Assembly (NCBI GenBank): GCA_029945195.1 | Contig: GCA_029945195.1_4117.1 | Strand: one strand, 5' to 3' | Source of the DNA: a phage | DNA length: 64,000 nucleotides | Shown here: positions 41,001-59,516 of the stretch, piece after piece | Layout: each line of letters starts with the position of its first letter | Position numbering within the stretch: position 1 is the stretch's first letter | Program-made: the position numbers and the translations under genes | The notes under the pieces: generated by a model | Told to the model about the DNA's origin: nothing | Seen by the model: the letters and a program-made list of their open reading frames with translations, nothing else | Databases searched by the model: none

Positions 41001-44000
41001 GAGTTCAACTGTACTGTTTTCACGACCAATCGCTTTCCAATAAATTGAATCGCGTGATTGTGATTTAATATACAATGTCCAAATGTTTTCACTATCGGTA
41101 ACTCTGATAATATCGCCAACTTGGTAGTTTTTAGTATTAGCATCTTCTAAGCTTGACTCTTGAGTATAAGTCGTGTTACTATCATACCCAACATCATACC
41201 AATCAGCATATGACCAGTACTGAGTCATGTCCAATGAAGTTCCCAGTGATTCAACATAATCAGATTGTTTAATCATTTTATGTTGACCCTCACCTTTGTT
41301 CTCTAACGTTATAGTAACAACACTACCCGCGTTTGCTGGACTATTCATTAACTGAATATATCCATTTTCGTCGAAGTGAATAAAATAAACAGCACTAGAA
41401 GTTAATGGATTTGGTAGATATCCACTAGTACTTAAAATAACAGCGTCATTTTCTTTAAATTTATCACTTTCAACTGCAATAACTAATTCATTATTGTAAG
41501 ACAATACACGGAAAGAAACTTCATTCGGATTAACTTCAGTGGTTTTAACATTAAACACATCTTCCATAACAACACTATTAGTGGTTATGTTTTGTGACCT
41601 ATAATAATTATTAGCACTTTCTACAAAGTTTCTACGAGCTTCTATAACATTTTGGAACCAAGTTTTGTTTGAACCTAAACCGTTATCAACATCTGGATAT
41701 AATAAATTAATCACAGAACCTGATTCAGTTGTTTCTTGACCAATTAGTGAGTTCCACATTGAATCCCAAATTAGTGGGTTAAAGTTATAGCTGTCACCTT
41801 CTTTACATAGTTGATACTGGTCATGTTTAACAACTTCAGTACTATCCATGTAATAAGAAACAGTTAAAATACTGGTATCATCATTCACTTTAAATTGCAT
41901 ATTACTAAGAATAAACGAGTTTTCATTGATTGGAGCGAACCAAGGAATGTTTAGCTGTGTTGGATCTTTAATAATACGAGCAATGTCAGTACATGATTTT
42001 GTTCTGGTATGTAGTGGTGGTACATAAATTGTATCACGTACCCAGAAATAGTATTTTGTCACATAACTATCAGTTGAACTATCATATTCCAAAAATGTAC
42101 TATAATTATCTTCAAGTGCAGTTCCACTTGGTAGATACATAGTATTATTTTTGTTTTTCTTAGCAACATCTTTACAGTATTTGTCCCAGTTATATGGCTC
42201 AACTGGTGAACAAACCCACTCTAACACATCAATTGTACTATGTGGTAATAAACGACCCCAGTTGTAACGTTTGTATTCATTGGTTGCATCAATGTCAACA
42301 TTACCGTCTGCGTCATAAATTGCACGAGTATAATCCAAATAAAATGCAGTGCTAGTGTTCCACCATACTTGACCAACTTTATCAGCACCCCAAGCCTGGA
42401 TTAACTCTCCATTACTATTATACTGTGCAGGATCAACTGGTGAAGTATATGTTACGTTTTGCATAGCCGCACCTGGAATAACACCATTAATTGGGTCATA
42501 AACGTTTAGATATAGCTCAGTAATGTTAGTACGTTCATCATATGTCGTTGGACGATCAAATAAAGTACTTTGTGGTGCTTTAAAACTATATTTCTTGTCA
42601 ATGTAAGCTTGACGTTCATCAGTACTGGCAAAACGTGATACATAACGATACAAACGTGGACGTGTATCTGGATCAGTAAATTCAATATCAATAGAAGTGT
42701 CAAATGGAACTACCATAACTTTAGGATCAGAACCAGCAGTATAATATTGACTTTCTACTGTTAAAGTATCTGGCATAAAGTTAGTTTCATCAACAAAATA
42801 ATAATAATCACCATCTTCAAGTGGTACATTATCAGTTAAAGTTACTTTACAAAATTGTTCAGCATACACATCGGTATTTTCAATAGGTGTTATAGAAACC
42901 ATTTGCACATTAGTATCAACCAATTCAAAAATGTTCCACAAACCATTACCGTCTTTAAACATCCACACAGATTCAGGATTTTCACCTTTACCATTAGTAT
43001 AAGTTATGCGGTCATTATATGCAGTACTGAAATCTTTTGTAGTGTAAGATACTTCATCCAATGTTACTGGACCAATATCTGGAAGTTGAATGTTTTCACT
43101 TCTTCCACTACGCATCGGGAATGAGAACTTACCATTTGGACGTGTAATCCAACGAGGATCTTTACCTTGTTCGCCGAAGTATACAATATTGTTTCCATTT
43201 CCATTTGAAGTAGCGTTTACATCAAAAGATACCATTTGTGGTTGTTGTTTAAATTGGTCATTGATTAGTTTAAATTGAAGGTTTTTCTTACCATCAATAT
43301 TACCATATGTACCAATTTTAAATGCCCATTCTTGTAATGCTTTATATTCATCAGTGTCATATGATTTAGAAACACGAAGTACACGTTCTAAAACTTGGTT
43401 AGTACCTTTATCGTGAATGAATCCTTTATAGAAATCAACACGACTAACATCACTACTAATCATACGCTGTAGATAATCACGAGATTGATAACCAATCAAA
43501 TGGTTTGACAACTCTTGTAATTGTACATCACTTACTGGAGTTTCACTATCATAATAATGTTGGAAATCCGACACTAATTTTTCAAATGATGGTAGTGTTC
43601 CAGCTTCCAAGATAATAAATCCAGGAGCTTGTAGGCGACCAGTCCATGAACCAGTAATATATCCATACATTTTAATTAGTTCTTGAATAGAACCATATGT
43701 TGGCTGATAAATGTAATCACCAAAAATAGTTTTATCATCAAAAATAACAGCATGTTCATATGAACACAAACTTAAACGAATCAATGCAATGCGTTTATTA
43801 GATTCTAAAGTTCTAACAGTGAAGATATTTCCAATACGAGAAGTTTCAATTTCATATTGGCGAATACCTTGGTTATTATCATCAAGTAATGACCATACAC
43901 CACCATTATTTTGCGTAATAGATTGTACTGAACCAAAGTCTGCCCCAAATTTAGCGTTTGCAGCACTTGGGGTACAAGAAATAAATTCACCAGTTACTAG

Positions 44001-47000
44001 AGAATTCTGACTCCAGATCACGAAATCTTTAGCAATAGTGTTCCAATCTTGTTGAGCACCACTATCATTTACATCTTCAAAAATCCAACCATGTTCTTTA
44101 AGATATTCACCATATCCACAAATAAAAGTATAAACTTCTTGGTAACTATTGAAAACTTTACCATATTCAATTGAAGCTTCAGACTTCCATTCATTATAAT
44201 GAACAACATTACGGTTTTCCAATTTAAGAGTTACTTTTCTACCATTTTTTACGGGAAGTTTATATTTAAATTTAGCACCAACTAGATCATATCCATCAAT
44301 CTGATATGCACTACCATTCCAAGTAATTTTGATCGCACTCATTTGCTCATCACGGATATTATTAGAACGAACAAGACCAATGGTTTGGTTTTCTTGTGAA
44401 ATAAGACCGAAAGATTTAGCATTGAATGTTAGCTGATCTGCTTTAGTAAATCCTCCAATTTTATGACCAACATTTATATAAGAAGAACGAACTACATCCC
44501 CATACTTGGTGGTAATATTTTTATTTTGATACATCAAATGGTCACTTACAAACATTTGATAACCAATGGTTCTTGTGCTATTTTCACCATGAACTACTGT
44601 ATTTTTATCAAAATTAATACGCTTACGTGTATCACCATAAAGGAATTGTGAACCATCAGTGAATACTTCTTTTAAGTTATCATTGCGGGTATCCCAGAAA
44701 TAGTTAGCAAATTGTGCTGGTTTAGCTTTATACAAAAGCATCATTTGGTCATATGCAAACAATGTAGTGTTCATGTATGTAAATTCCATGTCACCCATAT
44801 CACCATATGTCCAAGGTTCTGCTCTATGATTTAAAGATCCAGACACTAAACCTAAAATTTCAGGTGCAATATATTCAACCACACAAATATCAATACCAGA
44901 AGATGTTTTATTTCCAGTTTTTGTAATTTTGAATGGCTGTACACCAAATCTTTTATATTTGTCATATTGACCACGACGATCACCAAATAAAATAGTTCCA
45001 GTACTGCTATCGCCAATAGTTCCGTCAATATCCCAAAGACCACTAGGAACTAAATCACCTTGCTCATTCATAACAAGTGCTTCATATACATATACAACAT
45101 CACTATCACGTTCACCAACTTGAACAGCCGTTGGTTCGTATTCTTGGTTCCACCAAGTTGGACGTTGTGTAAAGCCAAACATTTCCCACGGATGGGTAGC
45201 TGGGCGATATGTACCATATTGGTCAGTGTAAATGGCACGCCATGAACCACGTGCAGGAATTTCAGTACTTTGACCATTAACTACATAATAAGTGCCAGTA
45301 TAGTTCCAAGTTCTCCAATTGTTAGGATCATAATCATGTGTACTATTACTGATACCATTAGTTGCGGTGAAGTTAATGTATCCACGTAGTAATAATGTTT
45401 GTTTCTCTTCAGCACTATATTCAGTTTTAGTGAAATATGGTGTAGGGAAAAGGTCATCACTATTCAATACTGGTACGTAATCAACATCTTTGAATTTATT
45501 ATCAATACTATTAAAAATTCTATTTTCTAATTCATATACAACATCATCCATTTTATCAACACCATTGATAACACGGTATGCTTTGGAAATAATACCAGTA
45601 TGACTGATGTTATAACAGCTTGGTTTACTACCAGCAGTGAGGAATGTCGCTTTTTCTGGTACATATGCTTGAAGAATACCTAAGAACTGTGGTGTTGGTG
45701 GTATAAATGCACGAATGAATCCAGAAGTACTTCCAACATTATCATAATAGAATGGGAATGAACTATCACGTCCCATATTAATAGTAGTTAAAATTGCATC
45801 AACAATGTTTGCAGCACTATTTTGTAAAAAGTCTGATGGATTTTCATCATACATACGAAGCATTTGTGTATTAAATTTATTAATGAATCTAAAATATTCA
45901 GATTGCATAAACATAGTTGCTTCAAATAAATCAATATCTTCATTTGCAGTATGTGCCATCAATGGAAGCATAGATGCTTCATTTTGGATAATTTTAGTAC
46001 CTACGCCATTATTAACCAATCCTTTAGCCAAACGTTCTTCATAGTCATTGAAATCATCAGAAGAACCACGTGTAATGTTCTTTTGAATAATATCCTGAAA
46101 ATGTAAAGTGTAGTCACCTTGGTTAATGTATATAATATTGGAATTGTATGGGTTATTTTGTAAGTTAATTGGAACTTCATATGCACCTAATTCTTTATTA
46201 GGAGTTACAGTACTGCTATAAGTTCTAATTTGAATAACTGAATCTTCATCCAAATCTACAGTGCTATCTAAGGTGATACTTTGAACTTGACCTTTTGATA
46301 CATTTTTGGTATATTTTGATACATCAACACCATCAACAACAACTTCAATTATGTCAGAATCATTATCTAAAACTTTTTGTGCTAATTCGAATGTGTGGTC
46401 ATATTTTACAATCTGAACACCATCACCAGTGATTGGATGCCAGTCTAGATAAGTTTCGCGGTCTGCTTTATAGTACTGATAGGTTCTATCAACTTCAATA
46501 ACATATGCATACATACCATCAACTGGTTCTTTAAAAACTTCCATATCATAAACAGTACTGAATACACGATACATATCAGTACGTTTGACTTGTGGAGTTT
46601 GTTTTACAAATTGTTTAGAGTACTCTTCTGAACGAACCCAATCGGTTTGAAGATTCATTTCATTATTTTCATCAATAATGTTATAATAGTATAAACCATC
46701 AATTTCAACTTCTTTTCCAAGATGGTCATAGGTATAACGTTGGGATTGTAAAAAGTTTTCATAAATGTAATAATTATAATCACCAAGTTCAATGTTATAT
46801 CCATATACACTATCAGTTGCATAGTTGTAATTTATTTTAAAACCAAACAACTCTGAACCTTTAAAGTTACTTGATGGATATGTAGTACTGTTGTCAAGTT
46901 TGATACCATTACGATCATAAAGTTGGAATTTAGGGAATACGTTAACACTAGTTTTTGATTGTGCACGAACCCACAAAGAACCATTCCAGTACATAGAACT

Positions 47001-47984
47001 ATTACCATACTCATTACCTTTAGTGATTAGAACAACATCACCATCTTGAGGTTCACCACTTGGGCGTGATTCGGTTTCTTCTTCTGGATCTAGTGCTAAA
47101 CCATAAACACGAGTACCATCTTGCATTTTTTTCACATATACATTATAAATTCTATTGTTTTCACCATTGTTACCAATACTGGTGAATAGAATACGCATTC
47201 CATCTTGCGGAATAATACCATCAATACGTATACCACTATTAATATCTTTTTGAACGATATCTTCAGGTTTAATAATATCAGAGAACAGATCAACAGTTCC
47301 ACGGAATTTTGTACCGTAGTTAATTAGCTCAATATTTTTATTATATTCAATAATTGGTGCACGTGCACGAATAAAACGTGAATCTTGCATTAATTCTTCA
47401 GTTAATATTGAGCCATCTTCTAATGTTTCACCTAAAGTATACCAAAAGTTTTGTAGTGACCATGTATTACCATTAAGTGCTCCACGTTCCATTACAATGT
47501 AATCAGGTGAAGTAATATTATAAGAGTTTTTAGTATCCCAAAGATATGAGCTAAAATTGTTCATTTTATTTGGGTTAATAGCTGGAGTCCATGCATAAAA
47601 CTTACCGTTGAACAAACGGCTTTCATTATCGGTTAGTGCTCCATAATGATTCATGTATCCAACTAGATCATCATAAAATTGAATTGAACGAATTGTCGAA
47701 TCATCATTTTTTGAGACGTAAGCAGTGGACAACTGATAAAGTTGACGTGCTACAGTACTTTCATGTAAGAAGATATTACCAGCAGCGGCAGGAGAACCCA
47801 TATCACCAATATAGCCGTCAACTAATTCGTTTTCAGCCGGATTAAACCATTGTTGAATAACATCATCACTGACTTTTTGAATATCTTCTAAGCCTTGCAT
47901 CCACTCAGGCAATCTTTTAATAAAAAGCTTCTTCTGTACTGCTTCAGCCATCTGTGTAGGTTGAAACTTAAAATTATTAGTCAT
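38013..47984 (-). CDS. giant virion protein (~3,320 aa), probably baseplate or fibre-associated
   Basis: Uninterrupted frame of ~10 kb; the ATG at 47984 has a GGAG RBS (ORF track ATG at 48014 lacks one); sits directly downstream of the gp6-like and gp25-like genes; no motif recognised by eye. Confidence 0.6.
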   Translation of the reverse strand: MTNNFKFQPTQMAEAVQKKLFIKRLPEWMQGLEDIQKVSDDVIQQWFNPAENELVDGYIGDMGSPAAAGNIFLHESTVARQLYQLSTAYVSKNDDSTIRSIQFYDDLVGYMNHYGALTDNESRLFNGKFYAWTPAINPNKMNNFSSYLWDTKNSYNITSPDYIVMERGALNGNTWSLQNFWYTLGETLEDGSILTEELMQDSRFIRARAPIIEYNKNIELINYGTKFRGTVDLFSDIIKPEDIVQKDINSGIRIDGIIPQDGMRILFTSIGNNGENNRIYNVYVKKMQDGTRVYGLALDPEEETESRPSGEPQDGDVVLITKGNEYGNSSMYWNGSLWVRAQSKTSVNVFPKFQLYDRNGIKLDNSTTYPSSNFKGSELFGFKINYNYATDSVYGYNIELGDYNYYIYENFLQSQRYTYDHLGKEVEIDGLYYYNIIDENNEMNLQTDWVRSEEYSKQFVKQTPQVKRTDMYRVFSTVYDMEVFKEPVDGMYAYVIEVDRTYQYYKADRETYLDWHPITGDGVQIVKYDHTFELAQKVLDNDSDIIEVVVDGVDVSKYTKNVSKGQVQSITLDSTVDLDEDSVIQIRTYSSTVTPNKELGAYEVPINLQNNPYNSNIIYINQGDYTLHFQDIIQKNITRGSSDDFNDYEERLAKGLVNNGVGTKIIQNEASMLPLMAHTANEDIDLFEATMFMQSEYFRFINKFNTQMLRMYDENPSDFLQNSAANIVDAILTTINMGRDSSFPFYYDNVGSTSGFIRAFIPPTPQFLGILQAYVPEKATFLTAGSKPSCYNISHTGIISKAYRVINGVDKMDDVVYELENRIFNSIDNKFKDVDYVPVLNSDDLFPTPYFTKTEYSAEEKQTLLLRGYINFTATNGISNSTHDYDPNNWRTWNYTGTYYVVNGQSTEIPARGSWRAIYTDQYGTYRPATHPWEMFGFTQRPTWWNQEYEPTAVQVGERDSDVVYVYEALVMNEQGDLVPSGLWDIDGTIGDSSTGTILFGDRRGQYDKYKRFGVQPFKITKTGNKTSSGIDICVVEYIAPEILGLVSGSLNHRAEPWTYGDMGDMEFTYMNTTLFAYDQMMLLYKAKPAQFANYFWDTRNDNLKEVFTDGSQFLYGDTRKRINFDKNTVVHGENSTRTIGYQMFVSDHLMYQNKNITTKYGDVVRSSYINVGHKIGGFTKADQLTFNAKSFGLISQENQTIGLVRSNNIRDEQMSAIKITWNGSAYQIDGYDLVGAKFKYKLPVKNGRKVTLKLENRNVVHYNEWKSEASIEYGKVFNSYQEVYTFICGYGEYLKEHGWIFEDVNDSGAQQDWNTIAKDFVIWSQNSLVTGEFISCTPSAANAKFGADFGSVQSITQNNGGVWSLLDDNNQGIRQYEIETSRIGNIFTVRTLESNKRIALIRLSLCSYEHAVIFDDKTIFGDYIYQPTYGSIQELIKMYGYITGSWTGRLQAPGFIILEAGTLPSFEKLVSDFQHYYDSETPVSDVQLQELSNHLIGYQSRDYLQRMISSDVSRVDFYKGFIHDKGTNQVLERVLRVSKSYDTDEYKALQEWAFKIGTYGNIDGKKNLQFKLINDQFKQQPQMVSFDVNATSNGNGNNIVYFGEQGKDPRWITRPNGKFSFPMRSGRSENIQLPDIGPVTLDEVSYTTKDFSTAYNDRITYTNGKGENPESVWMFKDGNGLWNIFELVDTNVQMVSITPIENTDVYAEQFCKVTLTDNVPLEDGDYYYFVDETNFMPDTLTVESQYYTAGSDPKVMVVPFDTSIDIEFTDPDTRPRLYRYVSRFASTDERQAYIDKKYSFKAPQSTLFDRPTTYDERTNITELYLNVYDPINGVIPGAAMQNVTYTSPVDPAQYNSNGELIQAWGADKVGQVWWNTSTAFYLDYTRAIYDADGNVDIDATNEYKRYNWGRLLPHSTIDVLEWVCSPVEPYNWDKYCKDVAKKNKNNTMYLPSGTALEDNYSTFLEYDSSTDSYVTKYYFWVRDTIYVPPLHTRTKSCTDIARIIKDPTQLNIPWFAPINENSFILSNMQFKVNDDTSILTVSYYMDSTEVVKHDQYQLCKEGDSYNFNPLIWDSMWNSLIGQETTESGSVINLLYPDVDNGLGSNKTWFQNVIEARRNFVESANNYYRSQNITTNSVVMEDVFNVKTTEVNPNEVSFRVLSYNNELVIAVESDKFKENDAVILSTSGYLPNPLTSSAVYFIHFDENGYIQLMNSPANAGSVVTITLENKGEGQHKMIKQSDYVESLGTSLDMTQYWSYADWYDVGYDSNTTYTQESSLEDANTKNYQVGDIIRVTDSENIWTLYIKSQSRDSIYWKAIGRENSTVELNDMLYADYSVHNDNGSLSNREINVRKALALLKNSFDLHQSEIVFDMVKYVHVEQSVVDWVFKTSYIYIVGLEQSLVQNYSNDNLINQIVEYFEEVKPYRTKIRSQIEQKTSDDDLIKGLCNDLDPNGYIFVDGSWVKTEKDIWDYEYAQFNEITQKWEQVGSLPSDFITPNRRFQEIDIIMHYDNIQCKPNADLASINELVSVNNKYQSNEKDAVSNYELQRYIYSFPEYSEETFDLLIAYQMQIYYPELDVTLGTAYGVNQWYKDHAEDLEATDEFTATLERVYKESTQNDMFTDLRQYVQYNTLANRLKLYKDISDEKIHDEVGCGFSGLTYNDNPSTRLPLGFSSSNDYNYGYFEISSELYQKYISLIKDKNPDASDYEVKVKLEVEYGVYVYRYDEVGGDTRFYTDAIHVLAGMRGLFDKDATDKYEKAEEILSKTPIDIYAITMIPRKYVYLNVNGVYQSIPDEQSIDDFMEDYFITNGEMIELAEINLDDLPLDQNNPMYSDYQYILDSITEAKYFNDMNAFDNLALESQTSSIKWEVKDDEVDPYIVDISDINPSGRDVGQIRFTVDGYGFDNVSLVQLRDNSRYQTEGMAIINPYKHTEAIVSIPSYAKIENDINKTTSKFDEKYFYRVRSINSLTEAEIVDNDLSDGDKVMIFTPDGEDFVRYQNHTWETILRVSNIKNNTTPILFTVRNTGKETIELIDESTGAVLRYDNITLAQQNEPVQPLALNIVRVRTFADPEFVKNGIKLYEQNRNYTIDVINYDVFYDTTLNGGKYNDGITPDDVDVWIISNEIFDVDGITIDNGYNLPITGAGVLSELARTKMTDSLEINVIEYDSSVIQPFRNNEGIWVYGYPMVDGMYIGVVGGTVTNITTISEENTTYVSQPKSISPYSIRNNVLSGSAANMNDIISIGYEKVEVRNANNLLRGVMYSAEHDFKLNTTYSFNGINLGNYDMLKRYTQNSYTIDLSVYTDSLQVSGNDIKNILLVK

Positions 47985-48030
47985 TTTTGGACTCCATATA
48001 ATTCGTTCATTCATTTGATTTATTTATGAT

Positions 48031-51000: not shown

Positions 51001-51525
51001 CTTGACTGGATTACCAAATTGGTTAGTACTGACAAATGAACTGTTCATTACTAGAATAAAGTTTTCATACCAGTTAGCATCCATCGGGTCATTCCAACGA
51101 ATAATTTTATCTTTTAATGATTCATTAAAACTATTACGAACATCTTGGTTTGTTTTAATTTCGGTTAATTTAGCAACTGCACGACCTGGATATGAGCGGC
51201 GTGGTGAGTAAGAAATCATTTTAGCTAGTTTTAGTACTGATGCACGACGAGTTGCAGTATCTAAAAAGTTTTCACGTGTGTTCAAATCCATACGAAATGC
51301 CAAGTTCTGACCTAGCATAGAAATCGTATCTAAAATAAAAATAAACTGGTCGTTTTCGATCCAGTCATTGAATGAGTCTGGGTAAGTTGCACGTAGATAA
51401 TCAATCATACTCTGACGGATAGTGTCGAAATCATAAGCTGTTAGATTGATTTTATAAAAACTTTCATATACTTGAGTCCAATCCTCACCAGCGTATAAAT
51501 TTGATTGCCTTTTTTGTTGTGACAT
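48064..51525 (-). CDS. baseplate wedge protein (gp6 / Baseplate_J-like)
   Basis: 1153 aa; position immediately after the gp25-like gene, plus size, suggests gp6; AAGGA RBS. Confidence 0.5.
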   Translation of the reverse strand: MSQQKRQSNLYAGEDWTQVYESFYKINLTAYDFDTIRQSMIDYLRATYPDSFNDWIENDQFIFILDTISMLGQNLAFRMDLNTRENFLDTATRRASVLKLAKMISYSPRRSYPGRAVAKLTEIKTNQDVRNSFNESLKDKIIRWNDPMDANWYENFILVMNSSFVSTNQFGNPVKRIDVNGVSRQLYRMNTIPMTAPSIPFIATVNGESMTFEVVNPDITSVGVEERHPEPQEQKYIVYQNDGNGFSSPNTGFFVYFVQGTLTYQDYQYAIREENRIQDINVDNINETDVWVQEINEDGIVRTKWTKVPSMESIAYNTVNRQLKTIFAVTTRDKDQITIKYPDSRSGVVPRGTFRVWYRVSNGKTYNIKTSEIQNKSVKYTYRTKTQSSYESSTLDIRFSLQYESDRAQSAETIEQIKARAPQMYYTQNRFVNGEDYNIAPLSLGNTVLKSKAINRIYSGQSRFIDINDPTGKYQNTDVFSDDGALYQENTQFNRSLLLPTTKTNASIVIDNIQPLIGENAVIQRYQAYPSNTIGIEIQQAWTPVYNSNYTTNTYGRILGSSGTVYGSYQVGTLIKFSNSGTTIWASVVSVLDNGFYVLSTSVPSGMQAIEYILPYRTRFNTVEVQSISAMLDKKTDFVIVHDKETTSWVPIEASTNDDTIVYNGNEVLIIINVKYTAETWEFDANGIEYIFVGGEKVRFYFVSSKKITDISTGTVQSDKIEILSSNTTSSSNSGLTSNIDFQIYDTIQQENGYLDGSRVIVTSRKVDSNGIPLEPNQFKEIVPTWTGTDALKYGGILVFQENSDFTISVLSLPNDTFTLLDSSWSYTMEQALAEPNAYKRTEFVRNNAIRSTTLSGLYSKGSGFLVGFNYDGKYYFIEQTVGNNNDRLGQLISNLTYSDDTGTVSPELAFYRAINNMGTNADENQKLDYYGYKDVTSQYTVKTNARTSIDFHWKHYAPDDNRIDPSRTNLIDMYVLTNSYKTEVDVWLKNNAVGSIPKPPTSVELKDMFKDVEQKIVISDSIIWHSAEYLPLFGNSAAEDYKADFKVVKLPNSTMSDDEIRQNVIALTNEYFNVDNWDFGESFYYTDLCTYIHSQLGRHISTIVIVAQNPNSKFGSLFEIPSRSDQIFLSTASVENVQIVNSLAKSNINIGS

Positions 51526-51591
51526 AATTTATTCCTTTAAATCAGTAAAGTACTAGTTCAGTACTGGGAATTATATATAGAAATATTTATT

Positions 51592-51620
51592 CAAAAAGAA
51601 AAGCACTCCGAAGAGTGCTT
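51592..51620 (-). terminator. UUCG-tetraloop hairpin terminator
   Basis: On the minus strand: aagcacuc-UUCG-gagugcuu followed by uucuuuuug. Confidence 0.55.
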
Positions 51621-51626
51621 TTATAA

Positions 51627-52022
51627 TTATAAAGACGAAACTGAATATGTTGCCATTCGGTTATTACTTCTAGCATCAAATACAATAGTAAGTTCTTCTA
51701 ATGCATCTAATACTACATACTCTAATACGATGTTCATTTGATAACCATATTCTATTCTTGAAATTTGCAATTTCTTGAGATTCAATCTTGGATCTAAGCT
51801 AATTATTCTACGGGCATCTGCTTCTAAAAGGTTGATAGTATTATAACCTTCTAGTTCAAATAACAAATCCCATGCAATAAAACCATAGTCCGCATCAAAT
51901 GCTCTTTCGCCTTTTTTTGTGTTAAAATGATTCATTAAATCTTGACGAACCAGTTCACTATCATACAATGTTTCGGTTCTACCCACAACAGGAGTATGAA
52001 ATCCTTTAAAAACAACTGCCAT
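51627..52022 (-). CDS. baseplate wedge protein (gp25-like)
   Basis: 131 aa; KKGERAFDADYGFIAWDLLFE resembles the conserved gp25/GPW core (T4 gp25 GSRPFDPEFGCDLSDQLFE, from memory). Confidence 0.65.
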   Translation of the reverse strand: MAVVFKGFHTPVVGRTETLYDSELVRQDLMNHFNTKKGERAFDADYGFIAWDLLFELEGYNTINLLEADARRIISLDPRLNLKKLQISRIEYGYQMNIVLEYVVLDALEELTIVFDARSNNRMATYSVSSL

Positions 52023-52036
52023 TGATTATTCCTTTA

Positions 52037-52525
52037 TTATACGGATTCAACGATACGTGCCATCTTTTCCGCTCTTGAAGTGGTTTGTTTATACCAAGTA
52101 CTATCACGCATTTCTTTACCAGCAGTTTTGTAATCACCCTTACCCAAAGCAGTGAGTGCTTTTTTGAATTTCAAAACTTTGGTTTTGCCCATTTGGAATA
52201 CCATTAACCATAATACACGTTGTACTTGGACTGGTGCGGTCATACCAAATTGTTCATAAATTGATTTTGCATCATTGTACGCAGTTTGAGCATCTTTAAG
52301 AAGAAGTTGGTCAGCTTGTGATTCAGTTAGTCCATTTTTGAAGTTTTCACCTGGAAGAACTAGATGACCATAACCAATAGTATCAAGACCTAAGCTGTCT
52401 TTATATACCCAAAACTTATCATTTTTAAAATAACCAAGTTTTTTCTGGTATGCAATTGTACCTTCAAATTCTTTTACTTCTTTGAAAAATTGCTCATCTG
52501 TATTTTTAATTTCCCATTTACTCAT
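52037..52525 (-). CDS. T4-lysozyme-like (GH24) endolysin
   Basis: 162 aa; EFEGT...LDTIGYGH catalytic region; MVFQMGKTKVLKFK and WYKQTTSRAEKMARIV match T4 lysozyme blocks; close paralog of the C-terminal domain of the hub protein. Confidence 0.85.
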   Translation of the reverse strand: MSKWEIKNTDEQFFKEVKEFEGTIAYQKKLGYFKNDKFWVYKDSLGLDTIGYGHLVLPGENFKNGLTESQADQLLLKDAQTAYNDAKSIYEQFGMTAPVQVQRVLWLMVFQMGKTKVLKFKKALTALGKGDYKTAGKEMRDSTWYKQTTSRAEKMARIVESV

Positions 52526-52561
52526 AAAGATATCCTCGTTTTATTTATAGTGCTAAAATAT

Positions 52562-55225
52562 TTATTGACATGCCTCCAAACGACGAGCCATTAACTCCGC
52601 ACGGCGTGTGGTTTGGCGATACCAAGCAGAATTGCGGATTTGTGCCGCTGCTTGTTTATAATTACCTTTTGCCATTTCTGATAACATAGTTTTAAATTTC
52701 AATACACCACCTTTACCCATCTGAAATACCATTTGGCATAGTACTTGTTGAGCAAGATAAGGAGTTTTCATGTTATATGAAGCATAAATTGATTTGGCAT
52801 CATAAATTGCTTTACTACTATCACGAACTAACATATCATTTGCTTGTTGTTCAGTTATTCCATCAGAGAAGTTTTCACCGCTAACAATTAAGTGACCGTA
52901 ACCAATAGTTGGATATCCACGACTATCTAAATAACGCCAGAACTTACCATTACGATAATATCCCTTTGCTTGTTGATATTGTAATGTACCCTCATATTCT
53001 TTTAATTCAGAAATAAACTGAGCATCACCAGGAACAACTTTCCAATCTATGGCTGTTTTATCAACATTACCTATATTATAAGTTGGTTGCTCAACTGGCG
53101 TAGTTGAAACACCACTTCTTTGTGTTCTTCTTCGACGAGGAACATGTCGTGAACCACGTTGTGAATAACCTGTACCAATTGTTTTAATTTTTGTAGTAAC
53201 TACTAATTCATCACTATCAACAGAAGGTTGCACTACTGCTTGAGGTGCAGATTGATTGGTTGCTTTTCCTGCAATTAATGTTTTATTGGCTGCGTCAGAA
53301 CCAGTACCAGTTTGAGATGCATAAAATAGACCCGGATCAACTGAACCGCTAAAACCAAGCACGTTAGCTGATGTAACACGTATTTCAAACTGTATAACAC
53401 CATTTGCTTTACCAACAACTTGTCCTTTTTGAACAACATCTTTGTTTAATAAATCAGATTGAATATTATAAAATACAGATTTATATCCTGACTTATGTTG
53501 TATTAACAGTGCACCATTAGTAATTACTATTACACCACCATCGGGTGCAACTATGTCACCTTTACATTGTATTTCCCATCCAGAACGATCTGACTTCCCA
53601 CCACTTTGTGTTGGAACACCTTTCCCCCAATAACCATATTGGCGAATAGTACCACTACATGGCATGAACATATGTAAACCTTCATATGTAATACTATATC
53701 CAGTCATCCCAGGGTCAGATGTCATTAAATCTTGAGATTGCACTTGTTCAGTTTCTGATGTATAGTTTACAAACTGAACAGCTTCTGTATCTTGTGCAAC
53801 TGGTAGTTCTGGCGATACATCGTTTGCTGGCTGTGGTTGAACTGGTGATTCACTTGAGCCACTCCCCCCACCTTGCCTTGGTGGTTCAACATAACTACCA
53901 TGATTTTCAGCATTAACCCAAGCGGCAATATCATGAATGTGTTCATTAAGACCAGCAGATGGTGTTCTGAAATTTGGTGCAGTAAATTCAGCTGTACCGC
54001 TATTACCACCACTATTAACTGTTAATGTTTGACCTCCACCACTAACAATTGCTGAAGATGAACCAATTAAGTTTGCAGATGTAGAAGCAGAAATAGACGC
54101 ATTTGAACCAGCAGTAATATCAGTACTGCTACCACTTTGCATACGTAATGATGCAGCCGTAACTAAACGAAGGTCAGCACCTGAATTAACCACCACTTGT
54201 CCACCAACTTTTGCATCAAGAGCACCAATTAGATCTAATTTAGTATTTGCACCAACGCGTGCATTGAAATCTTGTCCGGTTTCAATGTTGTATGAACGTC
54301 CAGCCGTAATATTAATATCTTGTCCTGCACGAATATTGATATTCTTGTCACAATGCATGTCAATATCACCTTCACCAGTGAATTTAATACGTGCAGTACC
54401 GTCACGGTTAATTAAAAGAACATCACCAGTTGCTTCTGATAAAAGAAGTTGTGCACCACTACGTGTTTTTATTACAACACCTTCATTTTTACGAGAACCA
54501 ACACGGGTATCGTTTACTGGGTTATTAAATTGCGTATCTTGATATCCATCTGGGTCTTGATCCCATGTGGGTGCAGTTAATTCCTCTTCAGTATATCCAT
54601 CATCAATAATGAAACTATTTCCACGTGGTGATGACATTCCATATACAGTACTTGTGGTTTGTCGAGTACTACTACGATTCGCCAACCCAGCTTCTTCGTC
54701 ATATAAAAGGTTTTGCTTTTTAAGACCTGCGATGATTGGAACGTTAGCATATTTGTCTTGCATATCGGTAGTGATAGTGTTACGATCATAGTCAGTAACA
54801 GGAAGTGGCATATCAGTTCCACCATAATTACTTACTTCAGTTGCCATACCCGGAACCATAGTATTCATACGCTGGTCATATACACAACCAATCCAATATG
54901 CTTGGAATGTACGGGCTTGTGCAAAAATTACAACAACTGTACACCCTACGTCTGGTGGTACTGCCCAAAAACCGTATCCTTTTGGATATTGACCATATGC
55001 ATCAGCACTTGGAATACCTGGTGTTTTACCAGCAAAAGGAGACATGTAAGATGCTTCTATCCATGATTCTTTTGAGTTTTTATCACTTTGAGAACCTTGT
55101 ATCCAAACTTTCAGTTTTCCTGATTTAGTTGGATCTCTGTTATCCATAACAGTTGCTAACTGCGGATAAGATGGGTCAAAACGACCCAACTGCTGTTGTG
55201 CATACTTTTTACTTGTATCTGCCAT
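52562..55225 (-). CDS. baseplate hub/spike protein (gp5-like) with C-terminal GH24 lysozyme domain
   Basis: 887 aa; N-terminal OB-like region, central beta-helix-like repeats (NINIRAGQDINITAGRSYNIETGQD...), a segment resembling a degenerate M23 peptidase fold, and a C-terminal lysozyme domain (EYEGT...PTIGYGH, MVFQMGKGGVLKFK, WYRQTTRRAELMARRL). Confidence 0.75.
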   Translation of the reverse strand: MADTSKKYAQQQLGRFDPSYPQLATVMDNRDPTKSGKLKVWIQGSQSDKNSKESWIEASYMSPFAGKTPGIPSADAYGQYPKGYGFWAVPPDVGCTVVVIFAQARTFQAYWIGCVYDQRMNTMVPGMATEVSNYGGTDMPLPVTDYDRNTITTDMQDKYANVPIIAGLKKQNLLYDEEAGLANRSSTRQTTSTVYGMSSPRGNSFIIDDGYTEEELTAPTWDQDPDGYQDTQFNNPVNDTRVGSRKNEGVVIKTRSGAQLLLSEATGDVLLINRDGTARIKFTGEGDIDMHCDKNINIRAGQDINITAGRSYNIETGQDFNARVGANTKLDLIGALDAKVGGQVVVNSGADLRLVTAASLRMQSGSSTDITAGSNASISASTSANLIGSSSAIVSGGGQTLTVNSGGNSGTAEFTAPNFRTPSAGLNEHIHDIAAWVNAENHGSYVEPPRQGGGSGSSESPVQPQPANDVSPELPVAQDTEAVQFVNYTSETEQVQSQDLMTSDPGMTGYSITYEGLHMFMPCSGTIRQYGYWGKGVPTQSGGKSDRSGWEIQCKGDIVAPDGGVIVITNGALLIQHKSGYKSVFYNIQSDLLNKDVVQKGQVVGKANGVIQFEIRVTSANVLGFSGSVDPGLFYASQTGTGSDAANKTLIAGKATNQSAPQAVVQPSVDSDELVVTTKIKTIGTGYSQRGSRHVPRRRRTQRSGVSTTPVEQPTYNIGNVDKTAIDWKVVPGDAQFISELKEYEGTLQYQQAKGYYRNGKFWRYLDSRGYPTIGYGHLIVSGENFSDGITEQQANDMLVRDSSKAIYDAKSIYASYNMKTPYLAQQVLCQMVFQMGKGGVLKFKTMLSEMAKGNYKQAAAQIRNSAWYRQTTRRAELMARRLEACQ

Positions 55226-57499: not shown

Positions 57500-57814
57500 T
57501 TAGCCTATGTTTCGAGTACCATTAAGATAATTCTGTACTCTTTGATTTGCTGGTATTCTAATTGTTACTCCACTTTTAAAATTATATATAGGATCTTCTC
57601 CTAGTATGTCTGGATTTAACAATGCGAAAATATAATATAAGCGTTCATTACCATACATTTCGTATGCTAAACGCCAAGGTTGATATTCATATTTCAATGG
57701 GATCTCATAAAAATCATCAGTATCAGCCGGAACAATATCACGTGGTAAATTATACCCAAGATACCATGTTTGTTTCACCTTAGCGTAAGGTGAGTATTGA
57801 CTATAGTTGGACAT
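57500..57814 (-). CDS. hypothetical small protein in baseplate operon
   Basis: 104 aa; strong AAAGGAGGA RBS; start overlaps the stop of the upstream gene. Confidence 0.5.
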   Translation of the reverse strand: MSNYSQYSPYAKVKQTWYLGYNLPRDIVPADTDDFYEIPLKYEYQPWRLAYEMYGNERLYYIFALLNPDILGEDPIYNFKSGVTIRIPANQRVQNYLNGTRNIG

Positions 57815-58545
57815 TAAATGAATCCTCCTTTACGTAATAGTTCACCACGTTTGAATGCATTGAGGTTGAACGTTTTAGTCATATAATCCGATGTTGGTTG
57901 TTCTTCAAGTTGTAACATAACTGAGATTTTTTGTGGAACCCAAACTTCATCTTGTGGGTTCATATATCCAGTACTTCTAAGTTGTTCGAAGAATTTTCTA
58001 CTATCCATGTCGGATAAATTAAAAGTACTATCGCTACTATTCAATGGAACTTGAATATAAGAAACATCATTTGGGTAAGTAAAATTATAAGATTTTAAAA
58101 TAACAGGAATATCATTATATGTATAACGACCATATCCACTTAGAAGTAAGATTGGTGGTGGTGCACCCGCAATTGCGAGTTCGGGGTTATTAGCCGAAGC
58201 AGCTTGTCTACCAAAATCCATCAATGAAACAGAACGTATAAAATGAACACATGCCAACGCATACATAGCTTCTGCTGCTGTATTTGCATAAAATTCACCC
58301 TGAATAGTGAAAACTGTATTAGTAGTGTTCTTATAGTTGTTATAGTTACTGTTGGTATGTATAGGAGACTGTGTTTCATACTGAATTGACCTTTGTTCAG
58401 TAATTGTTGGTGTTACAGTCCAAACCAACCCATTAGTTGGACGCAGAAACGAAAGTAGTGTTGGTTCGGAGCTATCCCCGAAATCACCATATACATAGTT
58501 AGCACCTGCGGCTTTAGGTCGTAATCGAATTCTACGATCAATCAT
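57814..58545 (-). CDS. hypothetical baseplate-associated protein
   Basis: ORF track extends to 58635 using a TTG start; the first ATG (58545, MIDRRIRL...) has a GGAG RBS; stop overlaps the next gene's start. Confidence 0.45.
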   Translation of the reverse strand: MIDRRIRLRPKAAGANYVYGDFGDSSEPTLLSFLRPTNGLVWTVTPTITEQRSIQYETQSPIHTNSNYNNYKNTTNTVFTIQGEFYANTAAEAMYALACVHFIRSVSLMDFGRQAASANNPELAIAGAPPPILLLSGYGRYTYNDIPVILKSYNFTYPNDVSYIQVPLNSSDSTFNLSDMDSRKFFEQLRSTGYMNPQDEVWVPQKISVMLQLEEQPTSDYMTKTFNLNAFKRGELLRKGGFI

Positions 58546-58676
58546 CTTTTTGATTCTCCATAATAAGGGAACATTTGATGTATTTATACGTGGGACAAAA
58601 TGCTTTTTGGTGCTATAATAACATTGATGGTACAAGGATTGTACCTATTGGATTTAAACATGGAGAGTAAAATACA

Positions 58677-59516
58677 ATGACAAATAGGCCAAAGCGTAAA
58701 AAGTATCTCAATAATGCTGATTTACTTCGTGAAATACAAAAAAGTAAGATTTCATACTGCTGGTTATTAGACAAATCATATAGTATGTATGATTATATTG
58801 TTTTTCATGAGTCAGAAATTACTGCTGAGTTACTTGAAAAAGCCAAAGCAGCACGAATCAAACGACTAAACAATGAAATGCTTGATAGTATTCGTGAAAA
58901 GGAAAGTATGAGTGCTAAAAAAGCTAAAGAATATGCAGATGAAAATAATTTAGTTATCACTGATGTTCCAATCGATGAAGTTGTTATTCGTGTTATCACT
59001 GATGAACATATTCCACCCGACACTAGAGTTAACTTTGAACCATTCAAGCATTACATTGTAGATAATGAAGGAATTCTCTATGAAGTATGTCGTTCTCATT
59101 GGAAAGGAGATCTTGAAACTGGTGAATTCAGTACTGTTCATGGTAAAATTACAAATGAACTAGGGAAGATGTTCATTAAACTTGCTGAGGAAATCTCTCA
59201 TAAATCTAATTACAGAAACTATACATACTTAGATGAAATGATGGGTGATGCAAGAATACAATTAGTTAAAAACGCACTTCTCTTTAAAGAGAGCATTCTT
59301 TATAAAAAAGATAAACCAGCAGTTCAGCTAAATCCTTTCTCTTACTATACATCATTCGTAAACAATAGTTTTCGTTCTATATTGAATAGTGAGAAAAATG
59401 TTCGAAATATACGTGATGATTTACTTGAAATGCATGGCTTTACGCCATCACATACACGTCAAATTGAAATTGAATTGAACATGATTGAAAGGAAAAATGA
59501 AGATGGCTCTGTTTGA
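58677..59516 (+). CDS. late-transcription sigma factor (T4 gp55-like)
   Basis: 279 aa; N-terminal K.KYLNNADLLREIQKSK and the NPFSYYTSFVNNSFRSILNSEKNV block resemble T4 gp55 (from memory); longer than T4 gp55. Confidence 0.6.
   Translation: MTNRPKRKKYLNNADLLREIQKSKISYCWLLDKSYSMYDYIVFHESEITAELLEKAKAARIKRLNNEMLDSIREKESMSAKKAKEYADENNLVITDVPIDEVVIRVITDEHIPPDTRVNFEPFKHYIVDNEGILYEVCRSHWKGDLETGEFSTVHGKITNELGKMFIKLAEEISHKSNYRNYTYLDEMMGDARIQLVKNALLFKESILYKKDKPAVQLNPFSYYTSFVNNSFRSILNSEKNVRNIRDDLLEMHGFTPSHTRQIEIELNMIERKNEDGSV

What the first reader, a model, noticed from the sequence alone, without database searches (positions are those of the whole stretch)
52037..55225. gp5-like hub with unusual domain order plus a free paralogous lysozyme
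The 887-aa protein appears to contain an N-terminal OB-like domain, a beta-helix-like repeat region, a segment matching the M23 peptidase fold pattern but lacking the HxH metal ligands (VIQFEIR where HLHFE is expected), and a C-terminal GH24 lysozyme. In T4 gp5 the lysozyme lies in the middle of the protein, before the beta-helix. The next gene is a 162-aa standalone lysozyme closely related to the hub's C-terminal domain. This suggests a spike carrying two wall-directed modules and a duplicated lysin used as endolysin.
Basis: partly seen in the sequence, partly recalled or inferred. Interest (0 to 1): 0.45.

Follow-up and report, generated by a model that had tools for sequence, protein, structure and literature searches.

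The report
Jumbo-phage tail spike with tethered lysozyme
This is the cell-puncturing tail spike of a known RaK2/121Q-type jumbo coliphage, with an inactive M23-like domain and an active-looking lysozyme hanging off its tip, followed by an old free copy of that lysozyme; the layout is real, but most of it was published in 2017.

Summary
On the minus strand, 52562-55225 encodes an 887-aa protein and 52037-52525 a 162-aa lysozyme that is 53% identical to the C-terminus of the larger protein (E 2e-58).

The window is an Asteriusvirus, 96.8% identical to Escherichia phage 121Q genes 587/586.

Domain order of the 887-aa protein:
- OB fold
- VgrG-like beta-helix
- an invariant HxH apex motif (H429/H431, 51/51 homologues)
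- linker
- linker
- GH24 lysozyme with E745/D767/T773 intact

None of 51 homologues (37-93% identity) has the M23 metal ligands. Yet the domain is as conserved as the lysozyme, so it is a degenerate, non-catalytic LytM domain.

The free lysozyme comes from one old duplication. It sits behind its own T4-type late promoter motif and is co-transcribed with the gp25-like gene. An orthologue (LysUE1) is muralytic in vitro.

Its role as the endolysin is unproven. The literature predicts a different gene (the 121Q gp532 type: membrane anchor, LysM, lysozyme).

Buttimer et al. 2017 already described the architecture, the possible M23 domain and the neighbouring lysozyme. What is new here is incremental: the universally dead M23 site, the internal apex, the age of the duplication and the promoter.

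The parts
52562..55225 (-). 887-aa baseplate central spike ('hub subunit and tail lysozyme'), orthologue of 121Q gp587
   Evidence: ORF. 96.8% nucleotide identity to 121Q. phrog_13211 matched full length. The phAPEC6 orthologue gp241 and CBB_240 were detected in virions by mass spectrometry.
54878..55159 (-). N-terminal OB-fold domain (residues 23-116)
   Evidence: Pfam Phage_base_V, 29.8 bits against a 23.8 cutoff. phmmer hit to the T6SS VgrG OB region, 9jg8, E 8.6e-6.
54491..54871 (-). Highly conserved region between the OB fold and the helix (residues 119-245); function unknown, probably contacts the hub or tube
   Evidence: Mean pairwise identity 0.64, the highest of any region. AF2 confidence is low to moderate.
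53972..54490 (-). Triple-stranded beta-helix region (residues ~246-418)
   Evidence: Pfam DUF2345, 34.9 bits against a 30.7 cutoff. phmmer alignments to VgrG beta-helices 9jg8 and 4uhv. AF2 pLDDT 80-94.
53933..53941 (-). HxH motif (H429-I-H431) of an apex domain directly after the beta-helix
   Evidence: Both His residues are invariant in 51/51 homologues, although the surrounding region is only 0.46 identical. The HxH histidine cage is the diagnostic feature of P2 gpV-type spike apex domains (bioRxiv 10.1101/2023.02.25.529910).
53693..53881 (-). Linker 1 (residues 449-511): Gly/Ser/Pro/Gln-rich, variable in length, ending in a short strand-helix element
   Evidence: Low conservation (0.34-0.41) and large indels in the family alignment. 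Low pLDDT at residues 451-457 and 501-511.
53291..53692 (-). Degenerate (non-catalytic) LytM/M23-fold domain (residues 512-645)
53054..53290 (-). Linker 2 (residues 646-724), containing a conserved 'GSGYSQRGS..VPRR(RR)' segment
   Evidence: Residues 664-699 are moderately conserved (0.47) with predicted strands. Residues 700-724 are the least conserved (0.25) and have low pLDDT.
52565..53053 (-). C-terminal GH24 (T4-type) lysozyme domain (residues 725-887); catalytic E745, D767, T773
52542..52549 (-). TATAAATA, a T4-type late-promoter motif just upstream of the free lysozyme gene (a second ATAAATA at 52559 overlaps the spike stop codon)
   Evidence: It is one of only 3 copies in 64 kb (10 expected by chance), all on the minus strand upstream of gene starts. 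ATAAATA is also present upstream of the orthologue in 121Q, K64-1, CBB and SE_PL. The motif was predicted as the late promoter of CBB and GAP32 (PMC5259590).
52037..52525 (-). 162-aa free GH24 lysozyme, paralogue of the spike's C-terminal domain; catalytic E21, D43, T49; no signal peptide or membrane segment
   Evidence: BLASTP 53% identity, E 2e-58. Pfam Phage_lysozyme, 39.2 bits. 96.9% identical to 121Q gp586. The orthologue LysUE1 was purified and is muralytic with EDTA (PMC12805682).
51627..52022 (-). gp25-like baseplate wedge protein (131 aa), co-transcribed with the free lysozyme
   Evidence: Pfam GPW_gp25, 34.8 bits. Only 14 nt after the lysozyme stop codon.
51599..51622 (-). Intrinsic-terminator-like hairpin (10-bp stem plus T-run) that closes the lysozyme-gp25 unit
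   Evidence: An ATAAATA motif at 51584 follows it, ahead of the gp6-like gene.
58581..58588 (-). TATAAATA late-promoter motif ahead of the first gene of the baseplate operon that includes the spike
   Evidence: It lies about 36 nt upstream of the RBS and ATG (MIDRR...) that matches the 121Q gp590 start.

Best explanation
The 887-aa protein is the baseplate's central spike, presumably a trimer like other spikes of this class. It is not built like T4 gp5. It resembles a P2 gpV/VgrG-type spike (OB fold, beta-helix, HxH apex) extended past the tip by two domains tethered on flexible linkers. The first is a catalytically dead LytM (M23-fold) domain. The second is a GH24 muramidase with an intact Glu-Asp-Thr triad.

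On sheath contraction the spike is driven through the outer membrane. The cargo, presumably three copies, reaches the periplasm first. The lysozyme then cuts glycan strands locally so the tube can pass. My preferred reading is that the dead LytM domain binds peptidoglycan stem peptides and so targets or holds the lysozyme on the wall.

The 162-aa gene is an old paralogue of the spike's lysozyme domain. It is transcribed late from its own TATAAATA promoter together with the gp25-like gene. It is a soluble, non-virion muramidase that acts in lysis, either as the holin-dependent endolysin or alongside the gp532-type membrane-anchored LysM-lysozyme. This parallels T4, where gene e and the gp5 lysozyme domain are paralogues.

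Shown: domain identities and order, loss of the M23 ligands, retention of the GH24 triad, conservation, age of the duplication, synteny, and the promoter and terminator motifs. Taken from the literature: presence of the spike in virions and in-vitro activity of the small lysozyme. Inferred: the trimer, where the cargo sits, peptidoglycan binding by the LytM domain, and the lysis role.

The confidence of 0.6 is a blend: about 0.85 for the domain architecture and spike identity, and about 0.4 for the specific roles proposed for the LytM domain and the free lysozyme.
For: - Domain calls above Pfam thresholds.
- VgrG alignments over both the OB fold and the helix.
- H429/H431 invariant in 51/51 homologues, together with the published HxH apex rule.
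- No HxH or HxxxD in any of 51 homologues spanning 37-93% identity. Even so, the domain is as conserved as the lysozyme (0.52 against 0.52) and more so than the linkers (0.25-0.41).
- The domain subfamily occurs only in this architecture among 1.84 billion representative proteins.
- More distant spikes also place GH24 or GH19 after the helix.
- Spike orthologues were found in virions by mass spectrometry, and the small lysozyme was not.
- The free lysozymes form their own clade (bootstrap 53-99) and are never sister to the spike domain of the same genome.
- Synteny is conserved in K64-1, CBB, XaC1 and SE_PL.
- Late-promoter motif and terminator.
- LysUE1 is muralytic.
Against: - There is no direct evidence for peptidoglycan binding by the LytM domain.
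- Three globular cargo pairs beyond an apex would blunt the tip, and the P2 work suggests tip cross-section matters. The cargo may therefore fold back, be cleaved off or be housed elsewhere.
- The AF2 monomer model is poor at the apex (pLDDT <50 at residues 422-430), so the apex call rests on the motif alone.
- The literature predicts another gene as the endolysin.
- Related phages L008 and L009 lack the free lysozyme at this position, so it is dispensable in part of the family.
- Non-detection by mass spectrometry is weak negative evidence for a small, low-copy protein.
- LysUE1 was assayed at a very high concentration, 2.65 mg/ml.
Confidence: 0.6

Rival explanations
1. The dead LytM domain is a protein-protein module, not a wall binder. 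It could keep the adjacent lysozyme latent until ejection, much as T4 gp5's lysozyme is held inactive in the assembled spike. Or it could dock the cargo into the baseplate or onto the beta-helix during assembly, as the degenerate LytM of SpoIIQ docks SpoIIIAH.
For: - The best structural and sequence neighbours include degenerate LytM domains whose known job is protein binding: EnvC, DipM and SpoIIQ.
- The domain occurs only in this one architecture, as expected for a part co-evolving with fixed partners.
- A strongly conserved family-specific N-terminal extension (MPCTGTIR..GYWGK, residues 521-538) and a conserved segment at 664-699 flank it.
- A folded-back, docked cargo would solve the blunt-tip problem.
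Against: No partner has been identified. No inter-domain contacts could be assessed, because only monomer models exist and their coordinates could not be inspected. The two long flexible linkers argue for mobility rather than fixed docking.
Confidence: 0.3
2. The dead LytM domain mimics EnvC/NlpD. Delivered into the periplasm on the spike, it activates host amidases (AmiA/B/C) at the entry site, so host enzymes help open the wall next to the phage lysozyme.
Confidence: 0.08
3. The M23-like domain is still an endopeptidase using a non-canonical active site, so the spike carries two active wall hydrolases, like phi29 gp13.
Against: All canonical Zn ligands and catalytic His residues are missing in 51/51 homologues. 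The domains contain 0-3 His in total and none has HxH. The Pfam score is below the gathering cutoff.
Confidence: 0.03
4. The 162-aa lysozyme is a minor structural or assembly component of the baseplate, made with gp25 because it works there, and not a lysis enzyme. The gp532-type protein is the only endolysin.
For: - Its position between the spike and gp25 genes is conserved across four genera.
- It shares a promoter-to-terminator unit with gp25.
- The literature names CBB_187 / 121Q gp532 as the endolysin and reports it is toxic when expressed.
- In the more distant PA5oct, a free lysozyme-like protein (gp173) was detected in virions.
Against: It is not listed among the virion proteins of phAPEC6 or CBB, and is stated as unconfirmed in RaK2-like phages. 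It is absent from relatives L008 and L009, whose baseplate modules are otherwise identical. Having its own strong late promoter suggests more product than a low-copy part would need.
Confidence: 0.2

Closest known systems
[quoted passage not shown]
   Same: The same genes: 96.8% nucleotide identity to 121Q and a full-length PHROG match. Buttimer et al. 2017 (PMC5259590) already noted the N-terminal gp5 OB domain, the C-terminal lysozyme, the difference from T4 gp5, a possible central M23 domain (E 6.5e-4) and the adjacent T4-type lysozyme.
   Different: Nothing in the genes themselves. That paper called the central domain a possible M23 peptidase. It did not note that the catalytic residues are absent, and it did not mention the HxH apex or the age of the duplication.
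Phage T4 gp5 (tail lysozyme / cell-puncturing device) and T4 gene e lysozyme
   Same: OB fold, GH24 lysozyme and a trimeric beta-helix in one spike protein. A free GH24 paralogue is encoded elsewhere and serves as the endolysin (established knowledge; Kanamaru et al. 2002, cited).
   Different: In T4 the lysozyme lies between the OB fold and the helix, and the tip is a separate PAAR protein (gp5.4). Here the lysozyme is the last domain, after the helix and after an HxH apex. A LytM-fold domain is added, and the free paralogue is the adjacent gene.
P2 gpV / phi92 gp138 / R-pyocin central spikes with an Fe-binding HxH apex
   Same: OB fold, intertwined beta-helix, then an HxH motif directly after the helix. 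The motif is invariant in the family.
   Different: Those spikes end about 12 residues after HxH, at a sharp tip. This one continues for about 455 residues with two globular domains.
'Evolved' T6SS VgrG proteins with C-terminal effector domains (for example V. cholerae VgrG-3 with a peptidoglycan-degrading domain)
   Same: The OB fold and beta-helix are homologous to VgrG, and an enzymatic cargo is fused C-terminal to the helix to be carried across the envelope.
   Different: VgrGs include a gp27-like N-terminal module and usually take a PAAR tip. This is a phage virion protein with an HxH apex. The VgrG-3 comparison is from memory and was not tested here.
Degenerate LytM factors (EnvC, NlpD, DipM, SpoIIQ)
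   Different: Those are cellular regulators or docking proteins. This one is a domain inside a phage spike, forms its own subfamily found only there, and has an unknown partner or ligand.
phi29 gp13 tail-tip protein (lysozyme-like plus M23 endopeptidase)
   Different: The gp13 M23 domain is catalytically active, the domain order is reversed, and gp13 is not fused to a beta-helical spike.

Membership tests
gp5/gpV/VgrG-class baseplate central spike | N-terminal OB-fold (Phage_base_V) domain | tested here: met
   Pfam PF04717, 29.8 bits against a 23.8 cutoff, residues 23-116. VgrG OB alignment.
gp5/gpV/VgrG-class baseplate central spike | Triple-stranded beta-helix following the OB fold | tested here: met
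   Pfam DUF2345, 34.9 bits against a 30.7 cutoff. phmmer alignments to VgrG helices over residues 280-431. Trimerisation itself was not modelled.
gp5/gpV/VgrG-class baseplate central spike | Present in the virion as a baseplate component | not testable with these tools
   From the literature only: the orthologues phAPEC6 gp241 (7 peptides) and CBB_240 (3 peptides) were detected by mass spectrometry. The gene sits between gp53-like and gp25/gp6-like baseplate genes.
P2 gpV-type spike with apex domain | Conserved HxH histidine-cage motif after the beta-helix | tested here: met
   H429 and H431 are invariant in 51/51 homologues. Rule. Metal binding was not tested.
P2 gpV-type spike with apex domain | HxH near the C-terminus, so that the apex forms the free tip | tested here: not met
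   455 residues follow the motif.
T4 gp5 architecture | Lysozyme domain inserted between the OB fold and the beta-helix | tested here: not met
   The lysozyme is at residues 725-887, after the helix (246-418).
GH24 / T4-type lysozyme (both the spike C-terminal domain and the 162-aa protein) | Sequence and fold match to Phage_lysozyme | tested here: met
GH24 / T4-type lysozyme (both the spike C-terminal domain and the 162-aa protein) | Catalytic Glu, Asp and Thr equivalent to T4L E11/D20/T26 | tested here: met
E and D are conserved in 50/51 homologues.
GH24 / T4-type lysozyme (both the spike C-terminal domain and the 162-aa protein) | Muramidase activity | not testable with these tools
   From the literature: the 162-aa orthologue LysUE1 lyses EDTA-treated cells. 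The spike domain has not been assayed.
Peptidase M23 (active metallo-endopeptidase) | M23/LytM fold | tested here: met
Peptidase M23 (active metallo-endopeptidase) | HxxxD and HxH zinc-binding and catalytic motifs | tested here: not met
   0/51 homologues have HxH. The three HxxxD strings found are at a non-homologous position. The window domain has only H518 and H577.
Peptidase M23 (active metallo-endopeptidase) | Pfam PF01551 gathering score | tested here: not met
   20.1 bits against a 28.7 cutoff. PF01551 is among the precomputed Pfam hits listed for 13 of the 118 proteins returned.
Degenerate LytM regulators (EnvC/NlpD type) | LytM fold lacking the metal ligands | tested here: met
Degenerate LytM regulators (EnvC/NlpD type) | Activation of cell-wall amidases, or a defined protein partner | not testable with these tools
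   Needs biochemistry.
Phage endolysin (lysis-cassette enzyme), for the 162-aa protein | Required for host lysis; acts with a holin or has an export signal | not testable with these tools
   It has no signal or membrane segment (sequence) and no adjacent holin or spanin genes. The spanin-like gene (121Q gp511) and the LysM-lysozyme (gp532) lie elsewhere in the 121Q genome, outside the window.

The most novel reading that the evidence does not exclude
The conserved dead LytM domain on the spike tip mimics EnvC/NlpD. Once delivered into the periplasm, it switches on the host's own amidases at the entry point. The phage would then breach the wall with one enzyme of its own plus hijacked host autolysins.
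Probability: 0.08. Interest if true: 0.8.

Novelty: already known. Interest (0 to 1): 0.3.

Why it matters
Spikes are usually discussed as two types: T4 gp5 (enzyme in the middle, PAAR tip) and P2 gpV (bare sharp apex). This family shows a third design, a complete apex-bearing spike with an enzyme and a dead-enzyme domain tethered beyond the tip. More distant spikes with C-terminal GH24 or GH19 domains suggest the design is common in uncultured phages.

It raises a concrete structural question: how does a spike stay sharp with three cargo pairs on its tip?

It also offers a clean case of a pseudo-enzyme domain kept under selection in a virion protein.

On the practical side, the 162-aa lysozyme is already being explored as an antibacterial (LysUE1). 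It helps to know that each genome carries three GH24 paralogues with different roles.

None of this changes the basic annotation, which is already in GenBank and the literature.

Tried and rejected
- A word-indexed homologue search with the 160-aa LytM fragment found nothing. The full-length query worked.
- A full-length family profile against the PDB was swamped by T4 lysozyme mutants and gave nothing on the N-terminal part.
- NCBIfam gave only a far sub-threshold hit to a gene-transfer-agent endolysin.
- A first bootstrap tree timed out and was redone with a faster script. Deep nodes of that tree are unresolved (bootstrap <50), so the exact point of duplication relative to L008, L009 and L010 cannot be fixed.
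- I considered and rejected a recent duplication or gene conversion between the two lysozymes, because each free copy groups with the other free copies and not with its own spike domain.
- I considered and rejected the M23 resemblance being a chance pattern match.
- I looked for literature on degenerate LytM domains in phage tails and found none in the searchable library.
- No high-resolution baseplate structure exists for this phage group. The only one is a 25 A phAPEC6 tail map.
Full report
**What is there**

On the minus strand, 52562-55225 encodes an 887-aa protein. After a 36-nt gap, 52037-52525 encodes a 162-aa protein. The stretch is 96.8% identical in DNA to genes 587 and 586 of Escherichia phage 121Q (genus Asteriusvirus, RaK2-like jumbo myophages). 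It is 92-94% identical to many other sequenced coliphages of that group.

[quoted passage not shown] The neighbours are baseplate genes:
- upstream: a gp53-like wedge protein and a 749-aa virion protein
- downstream: a gp25-like protein, a gp6-like wedge protein of 1153 aa and a 3333-aa structural protein

**Domains of the 887-aa protein**

Pfam gives three hits above threshold: an OB fold (Phage_base_V, residues 23-116), a VgrG-type beta-helix (DUF2345, residues 278-329) and Phage_lysozyme (residues 765-882). The N-terminal 450 residues align to T6SS VgrG spikes over both the OB fold and the helix (9jg8, E 8.6e-6; 4uhv, E 5e-4).

I aligned 51 full-length homologues covering 37-93% identity. 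Directly after the helix there is an HxH motif, H429-I-H431. It is invariant in all 51 sequences, although the surrounding segment is only 46% identical on average. According to the P2 gpV work, an HxH histidine cage is the one universally conserved feature of spike apex domains and can be used to identify them (bioRxiv 10.1101/2023.02.25.529910).

Residues 1 to about 448 therefore look like a complete gpV-type spike. In gpV the chain ends about 12 residues after HxH. Here 455 more residues follow.

**The M23-like segment**

Four lines of evidence agree:
- Scanned alone, residues 489-717 give Peptidase_M23 at E 7e-4, 20.1 bits. This is below Pfam's 28.7-bit cutoff.
- PF01551 is among the precomputed Pfam hits listed for 13 of the 118 proteins returned.
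- A profile of the domain from 24 homologues hits LasA (8e-7), SpoIIQ (9e-7), zoocin A, DipM and EnvC among 177,635 PDB sequences.

The catalytic machinery is gone. The HxxxD motif is replaced by G-W-E-I-Q. The mid-domain His is replaced by N/G/D. HxH is replaced by I-Q-F in 'VIQFEIR'. None of the 51 homologues has an HxH in the domain, and the domains hold only 0-3 histidines.

Even so, the domain is as conserved as the lysozyme (mean pairwise identity 0.52 for each) and clearly more than the linkers (0.25-0.41). It is a degenerate LytM domain kept under purifying selection.

A search of 1.84 billion representative proteins with the domain alone found only eight sequences. Seven are 870-985-aa hubs with the domain at the same place, and one is a fragment. 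This subfamily therefore exists only in this architecture.

**The lysozymes**

The 162-aa protein aligns to residues 728-886 at 53% identity (E 2e-58) and has E21, D43 and T49. It has no signal peptide or membrane segment.

A third paralogue lies outside the window: 121Q gp532, with an N-terminal membrane segment, LysM and Phage_lysozyme. All three share an insertion of about 13 residues between the catalytic Glu and Asp that T4 lysozyme lacks.

**History of the duplication**

The order spike, lysozyme, gp25, gp6, giant protein is kept in K64-1, CBB, XaC1 and SE_PL. In K64-1 four small genes are inserted between the spike and the lysozyme.

In a neighbour-joining tree the free lysozymes of these phages form one clade (bootstrap 53 for all six; 72, 97 and 99 for inner nodes). 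None groups with the spike domain of its own genome. So there was one old duplication before this group radiated, not a recent copy or ongoing gene conversion.

Two more distant metagenomic relatives (spike 40-45% identical) go straight from spike to gp25 with no free lysozyme. A third has one. Deep nodes of the tree are unresolved, so the exact timing is open.

**Transcription signals**

TATAAATA, the T4 late-promoter consensus, occurs only three times in the 64-kb window against about 10 expected by chance. All three are on the minus strand just upstream of gene starts.

One is at 52542-52549, between the spike stop codon and the start of the 162-aa gene. Another is at 58581-58588, ahead of the first gene of the baseplate operon. 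The window encodes a gp55-like late sigma factor (121Q gp591 equivalent). The CBB paper predicted ATAAATA as the late promoter of this phage group.

The motif also precedes the free lysozyme in 121Q, K64-1, CBB and SE_PL, but not the operon-internal spike, gp53-like or gp25-like genes. A terminator-like hairpin follows the gp25-like gene at 51622-51599.

The free lysozyme and gp25 thus appear to form their own late transcription unit. This is inferred from motifs only.

**How it most likely works**

The protein is the central spike. Its orthologues were found in purified virions of phAPEC6 and CBB by mass spectrometry.

It resembles a gpV/VgrG-type spike that carries cargo beyond the apex, in the manner of 'evolved' VgrGs, rather than T4 gp5, where the lysozyme sits before the helix. 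More distant spikes that share only the N-terminal 40% also place a GH24 or GH19 hydrolase after the helix, so this order is a recurrent design.

On contraction the cargo would enter the periplasm first, and the lysozyme would open the glycan strands locally.

For the dead LytM domain I favour stem-peptide binding that targets or holds the lysozyme on the wall (about 0.4). A protein-protein role comes next: latency control or docking in the baseplate, as with SpoIIQ or EnvC (about 0.3). An EnvC-like activator of host amidases is a long shot (about 0.08). Residual catalysis is very unlikely (about 0.03). None of these could be tested here.

An open problem is geometry. The P2 work indicates that tip cross-section affects infectivity, and three cargo pairs on the tip would blunt it.

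**The free lysozyme**

It does not appear in the published virion protein lists of phAPEC6 or CBB, and is stated as unconfirmed in RaK2-like phages. Its orthologue LysUE1, from the Asteriusvirus UE-S1 and reported as 96.3% similar to 121Q gp586, was purified and lyses EDTA-permeabilised cells, although at a high dose.

This fits a soluble late muramidase used in lysis, paralleling T4 gene e and the gp5 lysozyme domain. However, the literature predicts the gp532-type protein as the endolysin and reports that it is toxic when expressed. The free copy is also missing from some relatives. The endolysin assignment remains a hypothesis.

**Novelty and verdict**

Buttimer et al. 2017 already reported the following for CBB and its homologues, including 121Q:
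- CBB_240 has an N-terminal gp5 OB domain and a C-terminal lysozyme.
- Its architecture differs from T4 gp5.
- It may contain a central M23 domain (E 6.5e-4).
- CBB_239 next to it is a T4-type lysozyme.
- Only the spike and the gp25-like protein are confirmed virion proteins.

The finding is therefore confirmed but already known. What this analysis adds is incremental:
- the M23 site is dead in every member, yet the domain is conserved
- an invariant HxH apex lies in the middle of the chain
- there was a single old duplication, and each genome carries three GH24 paralogues sharing one insertion
- a dedicated late-promoter motif precedes the free lysozyme

I score interest at 0.3.

Noticed in passing
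window 51525-51627 vs L002:14101-14865 (121Q gene 584): 121Q carries an HNH homing-endonuclease gene (annotated as 'protein associated with group I intron') between the gp6-like and gp25-like genes. The window has only about 100 nt there, holding a terminator hairpin and an ATAAATA motif. This is a presence/absence polymorphism of a mobile gene between close relatives.
   Followed up: partly
window 52542, 58581, 63231 (minus strand): TATAAATA is strongly depleted in the window (3 copies against about 10 expected by chance). Every copy lies just upstream of a minus-strand gene start, as expected if the motif is reserved for late promoters read by the phage's gp55-like sigma factor (gene at 58677-59516).
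   Followed up: partly
window 57814-58635 (minus strand): The mechanical ORF (273 aa, TTG start) is probably too long. A TATAAATA motif and a GGAG ribosome-binding site precede an internal ATG (MIDRR...), which matches the 243-aa 121Q gp590.
   Followed up: partly
window 53135-53242 (spike residues 664-699): A conserved segment, 'ELVV...IGSGYSQRGS..VPRR(RR)', with predicted beta-strands sits in the otherwise variable linker between the LytM and lysozyme domains. It could be a processing site or a docking element. It remains unexplained.
   Followed up: no
window 54491-54871 (spike residues 119-245): The most conserved part of the spike (mean pairwise identity 0.64) has no Pfam match and only low-to-moderate AF2 confidence. 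T4 gp5 has its lysozyme at this position, and gpV has nothing.
   Followed up: no
spike residues 746-766, lys162 residues 22-42, and L003:18192-19118 (121Q gp532): All three GH24 paralogues of this phage group share an insertion of about 13 residues or more between the catalytic Glu and Asp, relative to T4 lysozyme. This marks them as one lineage-specific GH24 subfamily.
   Followed up: partly
L004:2891-4384 (Klebsiella phage K64-1): K64-1 has four small hypothetical genes, two on the opposite strand, inserted between the spike and the free lysozyme. The free lysozyme there has its own ATATAAATA motif upstream.
   Followed up: no
proteins P0090, P0092, P0099, P0107, P0110 (metagenomic spikes): More distant spikes lack the HxH motif. 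Instead they share 'P-x-H-E-P-W-x-x-H-E-N' after the helix, and several carry a C-terminal GH19 (chitinase-class) domain instead of GH24. This is a different apex or junction motif, with swapped cargo.
   Followed up: no
window 38013-48014 (minus strand): A single 3333-aa ORF (382 kDa in phAPEC6, detected in virions) lies directly downstream of the gp6-like wedge gene. It has no Pfam match (PF27647/DUF8360, seen in related loci, belongs to the neighbouring gp6-like protein). It is presumably a giant baseplate or fibre-network protein.
   Followed up: no
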